Source of the DNA: an uncultured Methanosarcinales archaeon
Lineage (GTDB): Archaea; Nanobdellota; Nanobdellia; Woesearchaeales; UBA11576
Length of the DNA stretch: 64,000 nt
Reading direction: 5' to 3'
NCBI GenBank assembly: GCA_964572875.1
Contig: CAZNGE010000001.1
Coordinates: 24,834-88,833, forward strand
The notes under the pieces were generated by a model that was not told the DNA's origin, ran no database searches, and was given only the letters and a program-made list of their open reading frames with translations. Position numbers and translations under genes: made by a program. The first letter of the stretch is position 1; each line of letters opens with the position of its first letter. Of this stretch, positions 1 through 6,436 are shown piece after piece.

Positions 1-2
1 GG

Positions 3-344
3 CTTTTCCCGTCATATTATGAGCCCTGGGGATACACGCCGCTTGAGTGCGCAGCGCTGGCTGTCCCGTCGCTGACTTCAGATCTAGGGGGCTTCGGCAG
101 GTTCCTGCTGCAGAAGACGACAGGCACGTCAGGCATCTATGTGCTGAAGAGGTTCGGCAGGGACAGGGAAGCGGTCATAGAGGATTTCACGGACATCCTG
201 CACAAGTTCGCGAGGTTCAACGCGAAAGAGAGGGTCCAGCAGAAGATACTGGCGAAGGACCTGGCGAATCTCGCAGACTGGAAAGAGCTGATAAAGAATT
301 ATTTTGACGCGCACAATCTAGCTATAAAGAAAGCTTTTGGGTAA
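3..344 (+). CDS. Glycogen synthase, eukaryote-type GT3 family, C-terminal fragment (gene truncated by window edge)
   Basis: Frame-3 translation [31 protein letters not shown]...[23 protein letters not shown] aligns with the C-terminus of the full-length GT3 synthase at 23201..25042 ([31 protein letters not shown]...ADWDSLILNYFNAEDMAIDRVFSG). Confidence 0.75.
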
Positions 345-396
345 TTATATTCAAGGACAAAACAGGCGAAAAAATAAGGGAGGATGGGTGATAGAT

Positions 397-1410
397 ATGA
401 TCAAGGTCGCGATTAATGGTTTCGGAAGGATTGGCAGGATGGTGTTCAAGGCAGGCCTGAACGATCCTGATATAAATTTTGTCGTGGTCAATGACCTGAC
501 AGACACGAAGACTCTCGCTCATCTGCTGAAGTACGACTCAGTGCATGGTATATTCCAGGGCAAGGTGGAGTTCACAGAGGACTCGCTGGTCGTAGACGGC
601 AAAGAGGTCAAGGTCGTGTCTGAGAAGGACCCGACAAAGCTGCCCTGGAAAGAGTTCGGTGTGGATGTCGTCGTGGAGAGCACAGGACGGTTCACCAAGA
701 AGAAGGACGCTATGCTGCACATAGATGCAGGGACCAGGAAGATACTCGTGTCCGCGCCCTGTAAGTGCGACGAGGGTGAGGATCCAGTCAAGACCGTCGT
801 CATGGGCGTCAACGAGGAGACCCTCACCAAGGATGACATAATAGTCAGCAACGCCTCCTGCACTACGAACTGCCTTGCGCCGATGGCCAAGGTGCTCGAG
901 GACAATTTCGGCATAGAGAAGGGATTCATGACCACCATCCACGCATACACCGCAGACCAGAGGACCGTTGACGGGCCTCACAAGGACCTGAGAAGGGCAA
1001 GGTCTGCCGCAGTATCTACAATACCGACGACAACGGGCGCTGCAAAGGCGATCGGAGCGGTGATCCCTGCGCTGAACGGGAAGCTTGACGGCTTCGCCGC
1101 TCGCGTACCTGTCCCTGACGGCTCATTGACAGACCTGACTGTAGTCCTCAAGGCTGACGCGACAAAAGAGCACATAAACGAGCTGTTCAAGAATGTCTCC
1201 CAGCACCACATGAAAGGCATCCTCGAGTACAGCGAGGAAGCGCTGGTCTCTGTCGACATCATCGGCAACCCGCATTCCTGCATCTTCGACTCGGCTATGA
1301 CTAAAGTGATAGACAAGAGGCTTGTCAAGATAGTTGGTTGGTATGACAATGAGTGGGGATACTCGAAAAGGATGATCGACCTGCTTAAGATAATGGCAAA
1401 GCTTGGCTGA
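397..1410 (+). CDS. gap: Glyceraldehyde-3-phosphate dehydrogenase, type I (phosphorylating, bacterial/eukaryotic type)
   Basis: [15 protein letters not shown]-terminus, [12 protein letters not shown] active-site Cys region, length about 337 aa. ATG at 397 preceded by GGGAGG. The track ORF start at 337 is TTG. Confidence 0.93.
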
Positions 1411-1453
1411 AACAGCAGAGAGCTTCAGCAAGCATCAGGAAAAGAATATCAAG

Positions 1454-3648: not shown

Positions 3649-4562
3649 TCACGAACAAGGCGCTCCAGCAGGTTGCGCAGAAGAGGAAGTACGCTGTAGG
3701 TGCATTCAACGTTTATGACATGGAGTCTGTCCAGTCGGTGGTGAAGGCTGCTGAGCTTGAGAGGTCTCCGGCGATCATCGCTACCAGCGAGGGCGCGATA
3801 GAGTATGCAGGTCATGAGTTCATCGCAGACCTGATCAGGCTTGCCGCGGAAAAGTCAAGGATGCCTTTCAGCATGCACCTCGACCATGGCAAGGACATGA
3901 AGATAATAAAAGACTGCATACGTCTGGGCTATACCTCTGTCATGATAGACGCTTCAAAGCATGAGTTCAAGGATAACATAAGGATGACGAGGAAGGTGGT
4001 GGGCATGGCCCACAGGAAAGGGGTCTCTGTCGAGGCTGAGCTGGGAACCATCGGCGGCGTCGAGGACAATGTCTCAGCCAAGACGATCATACTCACAGAG
4101 CCTGATGACGCAAAGGAATTCGTCGGGAAGACCGGATGTGACACCCTCGCGGTCGCGATAGGCACGAGCCATGGCGCTTACAAGTTCGCAGGAAAGTCAA
4201 AGCTCGACATAGCCAGGCTGAAGCTGATAAAGAGGAAAGTGAAGGTCCCTCTCGTTCTGCACGGGGCGTCAGGTATACCGCAGTGGGTGGTCAGGAAAGC
4301 CACTCTTTTCGGTGCGATGCTAGGCAAGGCGAGGGGTGTCTCAGAAGAGGACATAAGAGCGGCTGTCCACAACGGCATCAGCAAGGTCAACATCGACTCG
4401 GACCTGAGGCTTACGTTCGACGCCACAGTCCGGGAAGTGCTGAAGAACAGGCCGGAAGAGTTCGACCCTAGGAAGATCCTCGGCCCCGCAAGGGATGCTA
4501 TCACTGAGATGATAAGGTACAAGATGAGGCTGTTCAGCTCTTCTGGAAAAGTAAAGAGGTAG
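3642..4562 (+). CDS. fba: Fructose-bisphosphate aldolase, class II (metal-dependent)
   Basis: YAVGAFNVYDMESVQSVVKAAE...MHLDHGKD...LHGASG class II FBA/tagatose-bisphosphate aldolase motifs. Overlaps pfkB stop (ATG..TAG). Confidence 0.85.
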   Translation: MLVTNKALQQVAQKRKYAVGAFNVYDMESVQSVVKAAELERSPAIIATSEGAIEYAGHEFIADLIRLAAEKSRMPFSMHLDHGKDMKIIKDCIRLGYTSVMIDASKHEFKDNIRMTRKVVGMAHRKGVSVEAELGTIGGVEDNVSAKTIILTEPDDAKEFVGKTGCDTLAVAIGTSHGAYKFAGKSKLDIARLKLIKRKVKVPLVLHGASGIPQWVVRKATLFGAMLGKARGVSEEDIRAAVHNGISKVNIDSDLRLTFDATVREVLKNRPEEFDPRKILGPARDAITEMIRYKMRLFSSSGKVKR

Positions 4563-4565
4563 AAT

Positions 4566-5231
4566 ATGACAATCATCGTGGTGAATTTCAAGACGTATGC
4601 GCAGGCCACAGGCGAGCGCGCCGTAAAGCTCGCGAAGATATGCGAGAAGGTGGCGAAAGAGAAGAAGATAGACATAATGGTTGCTGTGCAGAACGCAGAC
4701 CTGTTCCATGTATCAAGCGAAGTCTCTATCCCGGTCTTTGCAGAGCATATAGACCCTGTCAAGTACGGCGCCAACACAGGAAAGGACCTTCCCGAAGCGC
4801 TGGTCGAGAACGGCGCGACAGGAGTCCTGATCAACCACTCAGAGGACCAGGATGAGCTTAAGGACATCGAGGGGAGCATAAAGCGCGCGAAAGACATCGG
4901 CCTGAAGACAATTGTCTGCGCCCCGAGCGCTAAGTCGAGCGAGGCTATCGCTGCTTTCGGGCCTGACTTTGTCGCTGTCGAGCCTCCTGAGCTCATCGGG
5001 GGGGACATATCAGTGTCGAAGGCGCAGCCAGGGCTGATATCAGAGACTGTCAAGCTCGTCCATAAGGTAGACGGGAAGATTCCGGTGCTGTGCGGCGCAG
5101 GGATAAAGGACCACGAGGACGTCAGGATAGCGGTGAAGCTTGGCTGTGAAGGCATACTTATCGCGTCCGGCGTGACAAAGGCAGAGGATCCTGAGAAGGC
5201 TCTTCTGGACCTGACAAGGGGGTTTGGATGA
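4566..5231 (+). CDS. tpiA: Triosephosphate isomerase, short archaeal type
   Basis: 221 aa, IVVNFKTY start, GGD/EPPELIGG and AGIKDHEDV motifs typical of the archaeal roughly 220-aa TIM. Confidence 0.85.
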   Translation: MTIIVVNFKTYAQATGERAVKLAKICEKVAKEKKIDIMVAVQNADLFHVSSEVSIPVFAEHIDPVKYGANTGKDLPEALVENGATGVLINHSEDQDELKDIEGSIKRAKDIGLKTIVCAPSAKSSEAIAAFGPDFVAVEPPELIGGDISVSKAQPGLISETVKLVHKVDGKIPVLCGAGIKDHEDVRIAVKLGCEGILIASGVTKAEDPEKALLDLTRGFG

Positions 5232-6436
5232 TGCTGCACCTGGACATATCACATCTGGACATAAGGAGATACTCTTCCATCAAATCAAAGCTGGACAGGA
5301 TAAGGAAGATGGAAGTTCCGGCATTTGAGAAGCACAAGGAAGACATCACAAGGCTTACAGCTACGCTCAAGAAGTACAGGAAGTACAGCAACCTGCTCGT
5401 CATCGGAAACGGCGGATCTAACACATCATTCAGGGCATTCCATCAGGCGCTTGTCCCGATGGACAGCAAGAAGAAGGCGTTCATCCTCACGACAATGGAG
5501 CCTGACCTGATCAGCGAGCTGAAGGAGGTTTTTCCGAAAAGAAAGACGCTTGTCATGCCCATCAGCAAATCAGGCACCACGATAGGGGTAATAGAGTCCT
5601 TGCTCGCTTTCGACGGGTACAGGATGCTGCCGGTGACATCGCCAGGAACTGGTGCGCTTTCAGTGATAGCTGAGAAAGAGGGTTTCGAGATGGTTCCGCA
5701 CGCGCCTGTCGGCGGACGTTACTCAGGGCTTACCGCCTCTGCATTCGCGCCTGCCCTGTTCTTCGGCATAGATGTAGAGACCATAGACAACGGAGCCAGG
5801 ACAACGTATAAGTACTGCAATCCGCAGGTGCACATAGACAAGAACCCTGCGTTGCAGCTCGCGGCTTCGCTCTACCTGCTCGACAAGAAGGGATATGACG
5901 AGATATTCTGCCCAATATACTCATCGAAGCTTTCAGGGTTCCAGAACCTCATAGTCCAGCTCATGCATGAGACTGTAGGCAAGAAGAAGAAAGGCCAGAC
6001 CATATTCTGCGCTGACGCCCCCGAGTCCCAGCACCACACCAACCAGCGATTTTTCGGCGGGAAGAGGAACGTGCTGGGTGTCTTCCTGACTGTCGAGAAC
6101 CAGCAGGACAATGACACGAAGGTCAAGGTCCCGCCTTCGATAAGGCAGATCAAGGCGCGTGACGGCACCATAGGAGATGTCAACGGCGTGCCTTATGCCA
6201 AGGCCCTTGAGTACGAGTTCAGGGGAACCTATGAGGATGCGATAGACAAGAAGATACCTGTCGCGCACATAAGCCTCGACAAGGTCTCTGCATTCAGTGT
6301 AGGTGAACTGATGGCATTCTGGCATTACGTTGCAGTATATTCCGCGTGGCTGCGGGACCTCAACCCGTTTGACCAGCCGCAGGTCGAGAGCTCCAAGGAC
6401 ATCAGCTTCAGGCTGAGTAGAATGCACAAGGGATGA
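5228..6436 (+). CDS. pgi: Glucose-6-phosphate isomerase (conventional PGI family)
   Basis: VIGNGGS and ISKSGTT motifs (PGI GIGGS / SKSGTT signatures). ATGA overlap with tpi. The exact start (5228 or a later Met) is uncertain. Confidence 0.72.
   Translation: MMLHLDISHLDIRRYSSIKSKLDRIRKMEVPAFEKHKEDITRLTATLKKYRKYSNLLVIGNGGSNTSFRAFHQALVPMDSKKKAFILTTMEPDLISELKEVFPKRKTLVMPISKSGTTIGVIESLLAFDGYRMLPVTSPGTGALSVIAEKEGFEMVPHAPVGGRYSGLTASAFAPALFFGIDVETIDNGARTTYKYCNPQVHIDKNPALQLAASLYLLDKKGYDEIFCPIYSSKLSGFQNLIVQLMHETVGKKKKGQTIFCADAPESQHHTNQRFFGGKRNVLGVFLTVENQQDNDTKVKVPPSIRQIKARDGTIGDVNGVPYAKALEYEFRGTYEDAIDKKIPVAHISLDKVSAFSVGELMAFWHYVAVYSAWLRDLNPFDQPQVESSKDISFRLSRMHKG

What the first reader, a model, noticed from the sequence alone, without database searches (positions are those of the whole stretch)
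1..6436. Complete six-gene glycolytic operon that uses bacterial-type enzymes in an archaeal genome
gap-pgk-pfkB-fba-tpi-pgi are tightly packed, several with overlapping stop/start codons. GAPDH is unambiguously type I ([10 protein letters not shown]-terminus) rather than the archaeal type II enzyme. The aldolase is class II rather than the archaeal class IA. TIM is the short archaeal type. Such a chimeric operon suggests horizontal acquisition of the upper glycolysis genes and a classical EMP pathway, and it is contiguous with a glycogen synthase gene at the window start.
Basis: partly seen in the sequence, partly recalled or inferred. Interest (0 to 1): 0.55.

Follow-up and report, generated by a model that had tools for sequence, protein, structure and literature searches.

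The report
Mosaic glycolysis operon in a Woesearchaeote
A tiny uncultured archaeon (Woesearchaeota) keeps six sugar-breakdown genes in one operon that mixes bacterial-type and archaeal-type enzymes; this mix is old, is shared by its relatives and is largely known, but the unnamed sugar kinase in the operon may be the phosphofructokinase this group is reported to lack.

Summary
The host is archaeal: a DPANN Woesearchaeote.

Gap is type I, Fba is class II, and TIM is the short archaeal type.

Nothing points to a recent transfer:
- The nearest homologues of Gap, Fba and PfkB are almost all Woesearchaeota/Nanoarchaeota (for Fba, then Bathyarchaeia).
- GC3 and codon usage match the rest of the window.
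- The gys-gap-pgk-pfkB-fba-tpi-pgi order is kept in relatives down to about 74-79% Gap identity.

A distant Nanoarchaeota locus has pgk(archaeal)-pfkB-class IA-type aldolase-tpi in the same neighbourhood. This suggests that bacterial-type genes replaced archaeal ones inside an existing operon.

Type I GAPDH and class II FBA in Woesearchaeota are already in the literature. The more interesting result concerns the kinase. In 20 of 54 distant loci, this Woesearchaeal PfkB subfamily sits immediately upstream of an FBP aldolase of either class. It also shares two active-site features with E. coli Pfk-2. It is therefore a testable candidate for the "missing" PFK.

The parts
3..344 (+). 3' end (113 codons plus stop) of a GT3-family glycogen synthase gene. 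It is probably the first gene of the same transcription unit.
   Evidence: The frame-3 translation ends at TAA 342-344. The full 603-aa gene with PF05693 is seen in the identical contigs L001 and L002. It lies upstream of gap in L084, L087, L088, L093, L094 and L096, with gaps from -17 to 36 nt. It is 46% identical to the second GT3 synthase at 23201-25042.
345..396 (+). 52-nt gys-gap spacer with an A/T-rich TTATATT stretch and a GGGAGG ribosome-binding-like site before the gap ATG.
   Evidence: Read directly from the sequence. Promoter function was not tested; the scanning tool does not cover archaeal promoters.
397..1410 (+). gap: type I (bacterial/eukaryotic-type) phosphorylating glyceraldehyde-3-phosphate dehydrogenase, 337 aa.
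   Evidence: TIGR01534 scores 438 bits (cutoff 367.2); TIGR01546 type II scores 21 bits. INGFGRIGR and SCTTNC motifs are present. Homologues of 64-100% identity are named Woesearchaeota/Nanoarchaeota.
1454..2644 (+). pgk: bacterial-type phosphoglycerate kinase, 396 aa (gene callers use an alternative start at 1478).
   Evidence: PF00162 scores 412 bits. The best solved relatives are 1vpe (342 bits) and 1php (337 bits); 2cun is last at 185 bits. It is 37-45% identical to PGKs in bacterial-labelled loci and 28-29% identical to the archaeal-type PGK of L091.
2680..3648 (+). PfkB/ribokinase-family sugar kinase, 322 aa. Candidate ATP-dependent 6-phosphofructokinase (inferred, not shown).
   Evidence: PF00294 scores 159 bits, but the protein is below every NCBIfam equivalog cutoff: ribokinase 132/300, Pfk-2 20/353. 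DTTGAGD and NKEE motifs are present. Homologues are named Woesearchaeota/Nanoarchaeota only. An FBP aldolase lies immediately downstream in 5/5 close and 20/54 distant dereplicated loci. The Pfk-2-like motif-I Gly is present in 197/201 family members and the Lys27 equivalent in 201/201.
3642..4562 (+). fba: class II (IIB) fructose-1,6-bisphosphate aldolase, 306 aa.
   Evidence: PF01116 scores 336 bits. TIGR01859 scores 349.5 (cutoff 343.05); tagatose-bisphosphate aldolase models score below their cutoffs. The closest solved chains are 1rv8 and 2fjk at 294-304 bits. HLDHG, GTSHG and LHGASG motifs are present.
4566..5231 (+). tpi: short archaeal-type triosephosphate isomerase, 221 aa.
   Evidence: NF003302 scores 291 bits (cutoff 132); the bacterial model NF000728 scores 28.5 bits. 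It is 39% identical to the TIM of the Nanoarchaeota locus L091.
5228..6436 (+). pgi: divergent short glucose-6-phosphate isomerase (SIS/PGI superfamily), 402 aa.
   Evidence: PF00342 scores 34.7 bits (cutoff 22). The best NCBIfam hit is PRK14097 at 131 bits (cutoff 443). The best solved relatives are 2q8n (103 bits) and 1b0z (93 bits). The alignment keeps ISKSGTT, GGRYS, an E-x-x-GK motif, the His, and NPFDQP-VE. The gene is present in L084, L088, L093 and L094 and absent in L087.
6510..10880 (-). Context, not part of the operon: a convergent four-gene [NiFe] hydrogenase with group-3b-like subunit composition (large, small, NAD-binding/FeS and 4Fe-4S subunits). It is a possible sink for reducing equivalents from glycolysis.
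   Evidence: Pfam hits PF00374, PF01058, PF00175 + PF10418 and PF17179. The same arrangement follows the operon in L084 and L087, and a related hydrogenase lies near the operon of L091. The link to glycolysis is an inference.

Best explanation
This is a real operon, inherited vertically within one Woesearchaeota (DPANN) subclade. Its order is glycogen synthase-gap-pgk-pfkB-fba-tpi-pgi.

It encodes the glucose-6-phosphate to 3-phosphoglycerate segment of the Embden-Meyerhof pathway: Pgi makes F6P, the PfkB kinase most likely phosphorylates it to FBP, class II Fba splits FBP, Tpi interconverts the trioses, and type I GAPDH plus Pgk yield NADH and ATP. It sits beside glycogen-metabolism genes, a ROK kinase, PEP synthase and NAD(P)-linked hydrogenases.

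The enzyme set is a mosaic:
- a bacterial-type gap-pgk pair, in the gene order typical of bacteria;
- a class II aldolase;
- a bacterial-like short PGI;
- an archaeal TIM;
- a Woesearchaeota-specific PfkB kinase.

The mosaic is ancient. The most likely history is that an ancestral archaeal module, pgk(archaeal)-pfkB-class IA aldolase-tpi, had its pgk and aldolase slots replaced in place by bacterial-type genes, with gap and pgi joined on.

Shown: gene identities and classes, lineage, conserved synteny, homogeneous composition, and the pfkB-aldolase linkage. Inferred: PFK activity of the kinase, co-transcription, direction of flux, and the order of replacement events.
For: - Enzyme classes come from curated HMM cutoffs and solved-structure ranking.
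- The genome is archaeal and homologue names point to Woesearchaeota.
- The full seven-gene order is conserved in L084 (Gap 79% identical), L088 (76%), L093 and L094. L087 (74%) has it without pgi. More distant relatives have gap alone or gap-pgk only.
- The same sequence occurs on independent contigs from three samples.
- GC3 is 0.689 in the operon and 0.675 +/- 0.059 elsewhere in the window. Mann-Whitney p is 0.88 for GC3 and 0.37 for codon usage.
- gap-pgk adjacency is found in most of the bacterial loci fetched.
- L091 carries pgk-pfkB-aldolase-tpi with an archaeal-type PGK (2cun best at 263 bits, against 190 for 1vpe) and a DhnA/class IA-family aldolase. It lies next to hyp genes, EamA and a NiFe hydrogenase, as in the window.
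- The PGK-type classifier was validated on more than 50 labelled loci.
- An aldolase lies directly downstream of pfkB in 13 (class II) plus 7 (class IA) of 54 distant dereplicated loci. Aldolase class is interleaved on the PfkB tree.
- All 201 family members have a Lys at the position of Pfk-2 Lys27, and 197 of 201 have Gly at the motif-I Lys position. PMC6429617 describes these as the special arrangement of Pfk-2.
Against: - No enzyme activity or transcript data exist.
- The kinase scores far below the cutoffs of every characterised PfkB-family model. It lacks equivalents of Pfk-2 Arg29 and Arg90, which bind the 6-phosphate.
- About half of the distant PfkB loci have no aldolase nearby.
- The L091 aldolase scores just below the ADH-synthase subfamily cutoff and far below the archaeal FBA equivalog cutoff, so its identity as an FBP aldolase is inferred from context.
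- The replacement scenario rests mainly on one fully resolved 'all-archaeal' locus (L091, identical to L099), with partial support from L121 and L134.
- The NJ trees have weak backbone support.
- Glycogen synthase upstream and PEP synthase nearby would also fit gluconeogenic use of the reversible steps.
- The rest of the genome could not be searched for alternative PFKs, type II GAPDH or FBP aldolase/phosphatase.
Confidence: 0.75

Rival explanations
1. Recent en-bloc horizontal acquisition: this genome recently imported a bacterial glycolytic operon, giving a foreign island in an archaeal chromosome.
For: Gap, Pgk, Fba and Pgi belong to families that are mainly bacterial (PMC12525153). The gap-pgk order is the common bacterial one.
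Against: - GC3 and codon usage match the host.
- The closest homologues of Gap, Fba and PfkB are Woesearchaeota at 54-100% identity, while labelled bacteria reach only about 60% for Gap.
- The operon and its archaeal flanks are conserved across relatives.
- TIM is archaeal and the kinase is Woesearchaeota-specific.
- No bacterial locus fetched has this gene order.
Confidence: 0.04
2. The operon is real, but the PfkB protein is not a phosphofructokinase. It would be a ribokinase, nucleoside kinase, ribose-1-phosphate kinase or other sugar kinase. The cluster would then serve mainly gluconeogenesis and glycogen synthesis, or feed pentose/nucleoside carbon into the trunk pathway. Woesearchaeota would truly lack PFK, as published.
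For: - The best NCBIfam matches are ribokinase (132 bits), 5-dehydro-2-deoxygluconokinase and ribose-1-phosphate kinases. JGI annotates the protein as ribokinase.
- The closest solved structures are KDG kinase, adenosine kinase and ribokinases.
- Pfk-2 Arg29 and Arg90 are not conserved.
- Glycogen synthase and PEP synthase are neighbours.
- An AMP-phosphorylase-like gene lies near the L091 operon.
- The literature reports that pfk is absent (PMC5994134, PMC8421398).
Against: - All those model scores are two- to twenty-fold below their cutoffs.
- The recurrent, same-strand, immediately adjacent pairing with FBP aldolases of two unrelated classes (20/54 distant loci, 5/5 close loci) is hard to explain for a pentose or nucleoside kinase.
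- The motif-I Gly plus Lys27-equivalent arrangement matches Pfk-2, and not RbsK, FruK or PsuK.
- A gluconeogenic cluster would be expected to carry an FBPase, and none was found among the window's ORFs of 200 aa or more.
Confidence: 0.25
3. Assembly or binning artefact: a bacterial fragment joined to archaeal DNA.
For: Metagenome-derived sequence. Mis-binned and mislabelled records do occur among its relatives.
Against: - The same junctions were recovered in three independent assemblies.
- The junctions are conserved in at least six related contigs with archaeal flanks: aIF5B-like GTPase, PUA proteins, hydrogenase.
- Composition is uniform.
- An archaeal TIM sits inside the operon.
Confidence: 0.01

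Closest known systems
Published Woesearchaeota / Woesearchaeales 'partial glycolysis' reconstructions (PMC5994134, PMC8421398, PMC11606122, preprint 10.64898/2026.05.13.725050)
   Same: The lineage and the gene inventory are the same. Type I gapA and class II fbaA are listed in Woesearchaeota pathway maps. In 123 complete Woesearchaeales genomes, K00134 GAPDH is in 117, PGK in 123 and class II FBA in 67. Glycogen storage, GH57/GH15, PEP synthase and hydrogenases are also noted.
   Different: Those papers report pfk as absent or rare and describe glycolysis as incomplete. In the passages I read, none describes the gys-gap-pgk-pfkB-fba-tpi-pgi operon, the bacterial versus archaeal type of Pgk, or the PfkB-aldolase linkage. 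My full-text search for PfkB + DPANN + phosphofructokinase found only two Asgard preprints.
Haloarchaeal bacterial-type sugar-phosphate enzymes (type I/NAD GAPDH, class II FBP aldolase, PGI; Haloferax volcanii; reviewed in PMC12525153)
   Same: These are archaea that run part of hexose metabolism with bacterial-type GAPDH, class II FBA and PGI acquired by old inter-domain transfer, alongside archaeal enzymes such as TIM.
   Different: The lineage is different and the acquisitions are presumably independent. The window's Fba scores only 142 bits on the haloarchaeal class II model NF041368 (cutoff 500). Haloarchaea use 1-PFK with a PTS for fructose. Here the genes form one compact operon with a different kinase.
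Bacterial gap-pgk(-tpi) operons
   Same: gap is followed directly by a bacterial-type pgk on the same strand, as in most of the roughly 60 bacterial loci fetched.
   Different: In the window the pair is followed by a PfkB kinase, a class II aldolase, an archaeal TIM and pgi. No fetched bacterial locus has that continuation.
PfkB-family ATP-dependent 6-phosphofructokinases: E. coli Pfk-2 (PMC6429617, PMC12203962) and the Aeropyrum pernix ATP-PFK (Hansen & Schonheit 2001, as cited in PMC12525153)
   Same: They share the ribokinase-like fold family (PF00294), the GXGD catalytic Asp, Gly in place of the motif-I Lys, and a Lys aligned with Pfk-2 Lys27. There is precedent for an archaeal PFK of this family.
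   Different: The window protein is only 19% identical to Pfk-2 and scores 20 bits on NF007632 (cutoff 353). Arg29 and Arg90 are not conserved. Activity is untested.
Archaeal-type module pgk-pfkB-class IA aldolase-tpi in another Nanoarchaeota lineage
   Same: It has the same gene order around the kinase, a homologous PfkB (43%) and TIM (39%), and the same neighbourhood of hydrogenase, hyp genes and EamA.
   Different: Its Pgk is archaeal-type (29% identical to the window's) and its aldolase belongs to the DhnA/class IA family rather than class II. There is no gap or pgi in that operon.

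Membership tests
Type I (bacterial/eukaryotic) GAPDH | Scores above the curated cutoff of the equivalog model TIGR01534 | tested here: met
   438 bits against a cutoff of 367.2.
Type I (bacterial/eukaryotic) GAPDH | N-terminal NAD-binding INGFGRIGR and the catalytic Cys motif SCTTNC (motif assignment from general knowledge of the family) | tested here: met
   [14 protein letters not shown] and [11 protein letters not shown] are present in the translation.
Type II (archaeal) GAPDH | Scores above the cutoff of TIGR01546 / NF003251 | tested here: not met
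   21 bits (cutoff 232.9) and 35 bits (cutoff 185).
Class II fructose-bisphosphate aldolase | PF01116 domain, and the FBA equivalog TIGR01859 above cutoff while tagatose-bisphosphate aldolase models stay below theirs | tested here: met
   PF01116 scores 335.7 bits. TIGR01859 scores 349.5 against 343.05. GatY 314/383, TIGR01858 279/443.
Class II fructose-bisphosphate aldolase | Metal-binding His motifs (HLDH, GTSHG, LHGxSG; assignment from general knowledge) | tested here: met
   SMHLDHG, IGTSHGAYKF and LVLHGASG are present in the translation.
Archaeal class IA FBP aldolase (DhnA/PF01791) | PF01791 / NF040816 match | tested here: not met
   The window Fba has no such hit, and none of the 46 window ORFs of 200 aa or more that were scanned has one.
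Bacterial-type phosphoglycerate kinase | Closer to bacterial than to archaeal PGKs | tested here: met
   1vpe scores 342 and 1php 337 bits, against 185 for 2cun. The window PGK scores about twice as high as the archaeal-type L091 PGK on every bacterial-labelled locus, and the pattern reverses for the Bathyarchaeia and Nitrososphaera loci.
Short archaeal triosephosphate isomerase | NF003302 above cutoff; length about 220 aa | tested here: met
   291 bits against 132; 221 aa.
Glucose-6-phosphate isomerase (PGI/SIS superfamily) | Pfam PF00342 above the gathering score, and conserved substrate/catalytic motifs | tested here: met
   34.7 bits against 22. ISKSGTT, GGRYS, ETVGK, a His, and NPFDQPQVE align with the same motifs of 2q8n and 1b0z.
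Glucose-6-phosphate isomerase (PGI/SIS superfamily) | Passes a curated equivalog cutoff | tested here: not met
   The best is PRK14097 at 131 bits against 443. The archaeal PGI/PMI model TIGR02128 scores 18 against 214. This is a divergent subfamily.
PfkB/ribokinase-like sugar kinase | PF00294 domain with the GXGD anion-hole/catalytic Asp and the NxxE motif | tested here: met
   158.6 bits. DTTGAGD and NKEEA are invariant in the family alignment.
6-phosphofructokinase of the PfkB type (E. coli Pfk-2-like) | Scores above the cutoff of the Pfk-2 equivalog NF007632 | tested here: not met
   19.9 bits against 353. Pfk-2 is absent from the 60 best solved-structure hits.
6-phosphofructokinase of the PfkB type (E. 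coli Pfk-2-like) | Motif-I Lys replaced by Gly, with a compensating Lys27 (PMC6429617) | tested here: met
   The family motif GGG[AGS]TN aligns with Pfk-2 GGGGIN. There is a Lys at N-16 in 201/201 members and a Gly at N-3 in 197/201. E. coli RbsK, FruK and PsuK lack the Lys.
6-phosphofructokinase of the PfkB type (E. coli Pfk-2-like) | Arg29 and Arg90 that bind the 6-phosphate of F6P (PMC6429617) | tested here: not met
   The aligned positions are Leu (190/201) and Ala/Gly/Asp. The alignment is at 19% identity, so the Arg90 column is less certain.
6-phosphofructokinase of the PfkB type (E. coli Pfk-2-like) | Catalyses F6P + NTP -> FBP | not testable with these tools
   This needs an enzyme assay. 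Only genomic context supports it.
Ribokinase | Equivalog TIGR02152 / NF008353 above cutoff; motif-I GGKGAN lysine | tested here: not met
   131.9 bits against 299.65 and 93.7 against 341. The motif-I Lys is replaced by Gly.
Operon (single transcription unit) | Same strand, short or overlapping junctions, and order conserved in relatives | tested here: met
   Junctions range from -7 to +52 nt. The order is conserved in L084, L087, L088, L093 and L094.
Operon (single transcription unit) | One mRNA | not testable with these tools
   No transcript data are available, and the promoter scan does not cover archaeal promoters.
Recently transferred genomic island | Deviant composition or codon usage, and nearest relatives in the donor domain | tested here: not met
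   Mann-Whitney p is 0.88 for GC3 and 0.37 for codon usage. The nearest relatives are Woesearchaeota.

The most novel reading that the evidence does not exclude
The Woesearchaeota-specific PfkB subfamily encoded at 2680-3648 is the phosphofructokinase that published reconstructions report as missing from Woesearchaeota. It would be an ATP-PFK of the ribokinase-like superfamily, with a Pfk-2-like Lys-in-trans active site, and it travels as a kinase-aldolase module whose aldolase slot has been filled repeatedly by either class IA or class II enzymes. If so, many Woesearchaeota have a continuous EMP pathway from glycogen, and the 'incomplete glycolysis' used to argue for metabolic dependence on a host is partly an annotation gap.
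Probability: 0.55. Interest if true: 0.5.

Novelty: new member of a known kind. Interest (0 to 1): 0.35.

Why it matters
The headline claim, bacterial-type glycolytic enzymes in an archaeon, is ordinary for this lineage. Type I GAPDH and class II aldolase are already tabulated for Woesearchaeota, and haloarchaea are a well-studied parallel.

Two by-products are more useful.

1. Arguments about whether DPANN archaea can make their own ATP rest partly on 'pfk absent, glycolysis incomplete'. A conserved kinase that sits between pgk and an FBP aldolase, and next to aldolases of either class across the group, gives a concrete gene to clone and assay.
2. Comparing this operon with an all-archaeal version of the same module gives a clean natural example of bacterial genes replacing archaeal counterparts slot by slot inside an operon. 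That is one way mosaic central metabolism can arise without disrupting regulation.

Tried and rejected
- Recent-HGT test by composition: GC3 and codon-usage distance of the six genes against 39 other window genes showed no difference.
- Assembly chimera: rejected, because identical junctions occur in three samples and are conserved in relatives.
- RNA features: the window has no tRNA or Rfam hits, so these gave no taxonomic marker.
- The GTDB scan with Gap was driven by the universal WYDNEWGY-type motifs. It returned mostly bacteria at 54-60% identity and no close relatives. It served as a labelled reference set, not for synteny.
- The NJ trees have weak backbones, so I use them only for local groupings. 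No ML software was available.
- The 'Bacteroidota bacterium' Gap hit P0082 was considered as a possible bacterial sister. It was rejected because its contig carries PolB, MCM and Rpr2.
- Solved-structure searches could not assign the kinase's substrate. The best hits (KDG kinase, adenosine kinase, ribokinases) are all weak, at 63-83 bits.
- I did not run structure prediction on the kinase. A monomer model ranked against ribokinase-fold structures would not discriminate substrates, and the informative Lys acts from the partner subunit.
- I could not retrieve the 190-kb NCBI contig or the rest of the MAG.
- I could not obtain the Aeropyrum pernix PFK sequence for direct comparison.

Full report
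**What is there.** Six ORFs lie head to tail on the + strand.
- gap, 397-1410.
- pgk, 1454-2644.
- A PfkB-family kinase, 2680-3648.
- fba, 3642-4562.
- tpi, 4566-5231.
- pgi, 5228-6436.

The junctions are +43, +35, -7, +3 and -4 nt.

Window 3-344 is the 3' end of a GT3 glycogen synthase gene. The complete 603-aa gene (PF05693) is seen on identical contigs from other samples. The operon covers six of the ten EMP steps, not a complete pathway. 'pfkB' is only a family name. The operon probably starts with the glycogen synthase gene.

**Whose genome.** The window also encodes FttA/aCPSF1, a proteasome subunit, aRF1, SRP54 and an archaeal-type prolyl-tRNA synthetase, so it is archaeal. Homologues of Gap, Fba and the kinase that carry a source name are almost all 'Candidatus Woesearchaeota' or 'Nanoarchaeota'. 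The organism is a DPANN Woesearchaeote. The exact Gap protein occurs on independent contigs from three samples.

**Enzyme types.**
- Gap passes the type I equivalog (438 bits against a cutoff of 367) and fails the archaeal type II model (21 bits).
- Fba has PF01116 and passes the class II FBA equivalog TIGR01859 (349.5 against 343). Tagatose-bisphosphate aldolase models score below their cutoffs. Its closest solved relatives are 1rv8 and 2fjk.
- Tpi is the 221-aa archaeal type (NF003302, 291 against 132).
The best solved relatives are 1vpe and 1php at about 340 bits, and 2cun comes last at 185 bits. By my recollection 1vpe and 1php are bacterial and 2cun is archaeal. In a two-query test on more than 50 labelled loci, the window Pgk scores about twice as high as an archaeal-type Pgk on every bacterial locus. 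The reverse holds for the Bathyarchaeia and Nitrososphaera loci.
- Pgi is a divergent short PGI. It passes Pfam but no NCBIfam equivalog. It is nearest to 2q8n and 1b0z, and the phosphate-binding and catalytic motifs are conserved in the alignment.
- The kinase has PF00294 with intact GXGD and NxxE motifs. It is far below every characterised model: ribokinase 132/300, Pfk-2 20/353.

**Not a recent transfer.**
- GC3 is 0.689 in the operon and 0.675 +/- 0.059 in 39 other window genes. Neither GC3 nor codon usage differs (Mann-Whitney p 0.88 and 0.37).
- The best 120 Gap homologues (64-100% identity) carry only archaeal names, with one exception: a 'Bacteroidota bacterium' record. Its contig encodes PolB, MCM and Rpr2, so it is a mis-binned archaeal contig.
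- Labelled bacteria reach at most about 60% identity.
- In an NJ tree of 111 sequences the window's Gap lies in a 12-member all-archaeal clade (52% bootstrap). That clade sits inside a larger DPANN-dominated group. The backbone is weak, so I claim no specific bacterial donor.
- The named Fba homologues are Woesearchaeota/Nanoarchaeota (56-100%) and then Bathyarchaeia (57-58%). None of the top 120 is bacterial.

The families are still of bacterial type, which fits old inter-domain transfers. Reviews describe class II FBA and PGI as mainly bacterial with few transfers to archaea (PMC12525153).

**How far the operon extends.** gys-gap-pgk-pfkB-fba-tpi-pgi followed by a convergent NiFe hydrogenase is conserved in L084 (Gap 79% identical). 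L088 (76%), L093 and L094 carry the gene order as far as their contigs extend. L087 (74%) has it without pgi. At 65-72% Gap identity, gap stands alone or only with pgk. The operon is therefore a trait of one Woesearchaeal subclade, whereas type I Gap is lineage-wide. A regulator with two winged-helix domains precedes gys in all relatives.

**How the mosaic probably arose.** A Nanoarchaeota contig (L091, identical to L099) has a kinase 43% identical to the window's. It carries pgk-pfkB-aldolase-tpi next to hyp genes, an EamA transporter and a NiFe hydrogenase, the same neighbourhood as here.
- Its Pgk is archaeal-type: 2cun is best at 263 bits, against 190 for 1vpe. It is 29% identical to the window Pgk.
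- Its aldolase belongs to the DhnA/class IA family: NF005556 231 bits, NF040816 213 bits, both below their cutoffs.
- Its TIM is 39% identical to the window's.

So the same frame exists in an 'all-archaeal' version. In the window's clade, the pgk and aldolase slots hold bacterial-type genes, and gap precedes pgk as in most of the bacterial loci fetched. I infer in-place replacement, possibly with gap-pgk arriving as a pair. This rests on few loci and is an inference.

**The kinase.** An alignment of the kinase family was used to fetch 80 metagenome loci.
- After dereplication, all seven close relatives have bacterial-type pgk upstream. All five with enough sequence downstream have class II fba downstream.
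- Among 54 distant homologues (35-45% identity) with at least 1 kb downstream, 13 have a class II FBA and 7 have a class IA-type aldolase immediately downstream on the same strand. Six more have an aldolase further away.
- On the kinase tree the two aldolase classes are interleaved in places. For example, L105 (class II) is sister to L171 (class IA) with 99% support.

A kinase that keeps an FBP aldolase as its next gene, whichever aldolase family fills the slot, most simply makes the aldolase's substrate.

The family also has Gly where ribokinases have the motif-I Lys (197/201), and an invariant Lys 16 residues before the motif Asn (201/201). This Lys aligns with Lys27 of E. coli Pfk-2. E. coli RbsK, FruK and PsuK lack it. 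PMC6429617 describes exactly this arrangement as the special feature of Pfk-2.

Against the PFK reading:
- The 6-phosphate-binding Arg29 and Arg90 of Pfk-2 are not conserved.
- Half of the distant loci show no aldolase.
- All similarity to characterised kinases is weak.

I put PFK function at roughly 55-60%.

**Likely physiology (inferred).**
1. Glycogen enzymes lie in the window: GH57, GH15, a debranching-type enzyme, PGM/PMM and a ROK kinase at 18573-31935.
2. They would feed G6P into Pgi, then the kinase, Fba, Tpi, Gap and Pgk, yielding NADH and ATP.
3. The adjacent hydrogenases have the NAD-binding and FeS subunits typical of group 3b enzymes. They could dispose of the reducing equivalents as H2.
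4. The reversible steps could also run towards glycogen, given gys upstream and PEP synthase at 11510-13930.

**Relation to what is known.** Woesearchaeota pathway maps already list type I gapA and class II fbaA (PMC11606122). A 2026 preprint counts GAPDH K00134 in 117, PGK in 123 and class II FBA in 67 of 123 complete Woesearchaeales genomes (10.64898/2026.05.13.725050). Haloarchaea are a studied parallel (PMC12525153). The same literature states that all or most Woesearchaeota lack pfk and have incomplete glycolysis (PMC5994134, PMC8421398). A full-text search for PfkB + DPANN + phosphofructokinase found nothing relevant.

**Verdict.** The given finding is a new member of a known kind, of modest interest. 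The kinase hypothesis and the slot-wise replacement are the parts worth following up.

**Limits.**
- No ML phylogenies were possible.
- Organism labels come from record titles, and some are wrong.
- The metagenome loci are unlabelled.
- Nothing here tests activity or transcription.

Noticed in passing
window 7806-9029 (- strand): The hydrogenase small subunit (PF01058 in residues 24-158) carries a C-terminal extension of about 150 aa that is extremely Lys-rich, including four tandem KKMKKHDKK-like repeats. The second small-subunit copy at 17464-18273 is only 269 aa. Relatives also have extended versions (344 and 393 aa in L084 and L087). The long + strand ORF 7756-8526 is the Phe-rich antisense shadow of this tail.
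   Followed up: partly
window 6510-10880 and 16200-18273 (- strand): There are two sets of [NiFe] hydrogenase genes. The first has four subunits with a group-3b-like make-up. For the second, only the large and small subunits were identified. The first set is conserved convergent to the glycolytic operon in relatives.
   Followed up: partly
window 18573-31935 (+ strand): A glycogen/starch gene island. It holds a GT4/GT5-type synthase, GH57, a ParA-like ATPase, a second GT3 (eukaryote-like, PF05693) glycogen synthase at 23201-25042 that is 46% identical to the one at the window start, a GalT/HIT-like transferase, PGM/PMM, a GDE_C debranching-type enzyme, a ROK kinase and GH15.
   Followed up: partly
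window 11510-13930 (- strand): A PEP synthase (TIGR01418, 1208 bits) lies between the two hydrogenase clusters. A pps gene is also found within a few kb of the PfkB homologue in many distant loci, for example L097, L104, L143, L156 and L169.
   Followed up: partly
L001 5082-6197, L084 7064-8122, L087 1812-2906, L088 7059-8135 (just upstream of the window): A protein of about 350-370 aa with two HTH_AsnC/HTH_24 winged-helix domains is conserved immediately upstream of the glycogen synthase gene in every relative that has the operon. It is a candidate regulator of the operon.
   Followed up: no
L089 (GCA_042584385.1, contig JBHOSX010000043.1): A contig filed under a 'Bacteroidota bacterium' MAG encodes family B DNA polymerase, MCM, Rpr2 and a Woesearchaeota-like gap-pgk pair. 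It is an archaeal contig placed in a bacterial bin.
   Followed up: yes
L004, L006, L007, L011, L014, L015: Several MAGs titled 'uncultured Methanosarcinales archaeon' carry Gap sequences that group tightly with Woesearchaeota. For example, L004 pairs with P0089 at 100% bootstrap. The organism labels are probably wrong.
   Followed up: partly
window 61374-62456 (+ strand): A 360-aa protein matches Pfam MATCAP (microtubule-associated tyrosine carboxypeptidase family) over its full length, with E = 8e-55. This is an unexpected family name for a DPANN archaeon.
   Followed up: no
window 51124-51819 (- strand): A stand-alone LigD 3'-phosphoesterase domain protein (PF13298, E = 2.5e-40) lies next to SRP54.
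   Followed up: no
window 21493-22356, 30296-30928, 31940-34506, 38481-39578, 44139-44888, 56724-58313: Several ORFs of 210-610 aa have no Pfam match at E <= 1e-5. The pair 31940-33772 / 33769-34506 also has the lowest GC3 in the window (0.57 and 0.49).
   Followed up: no
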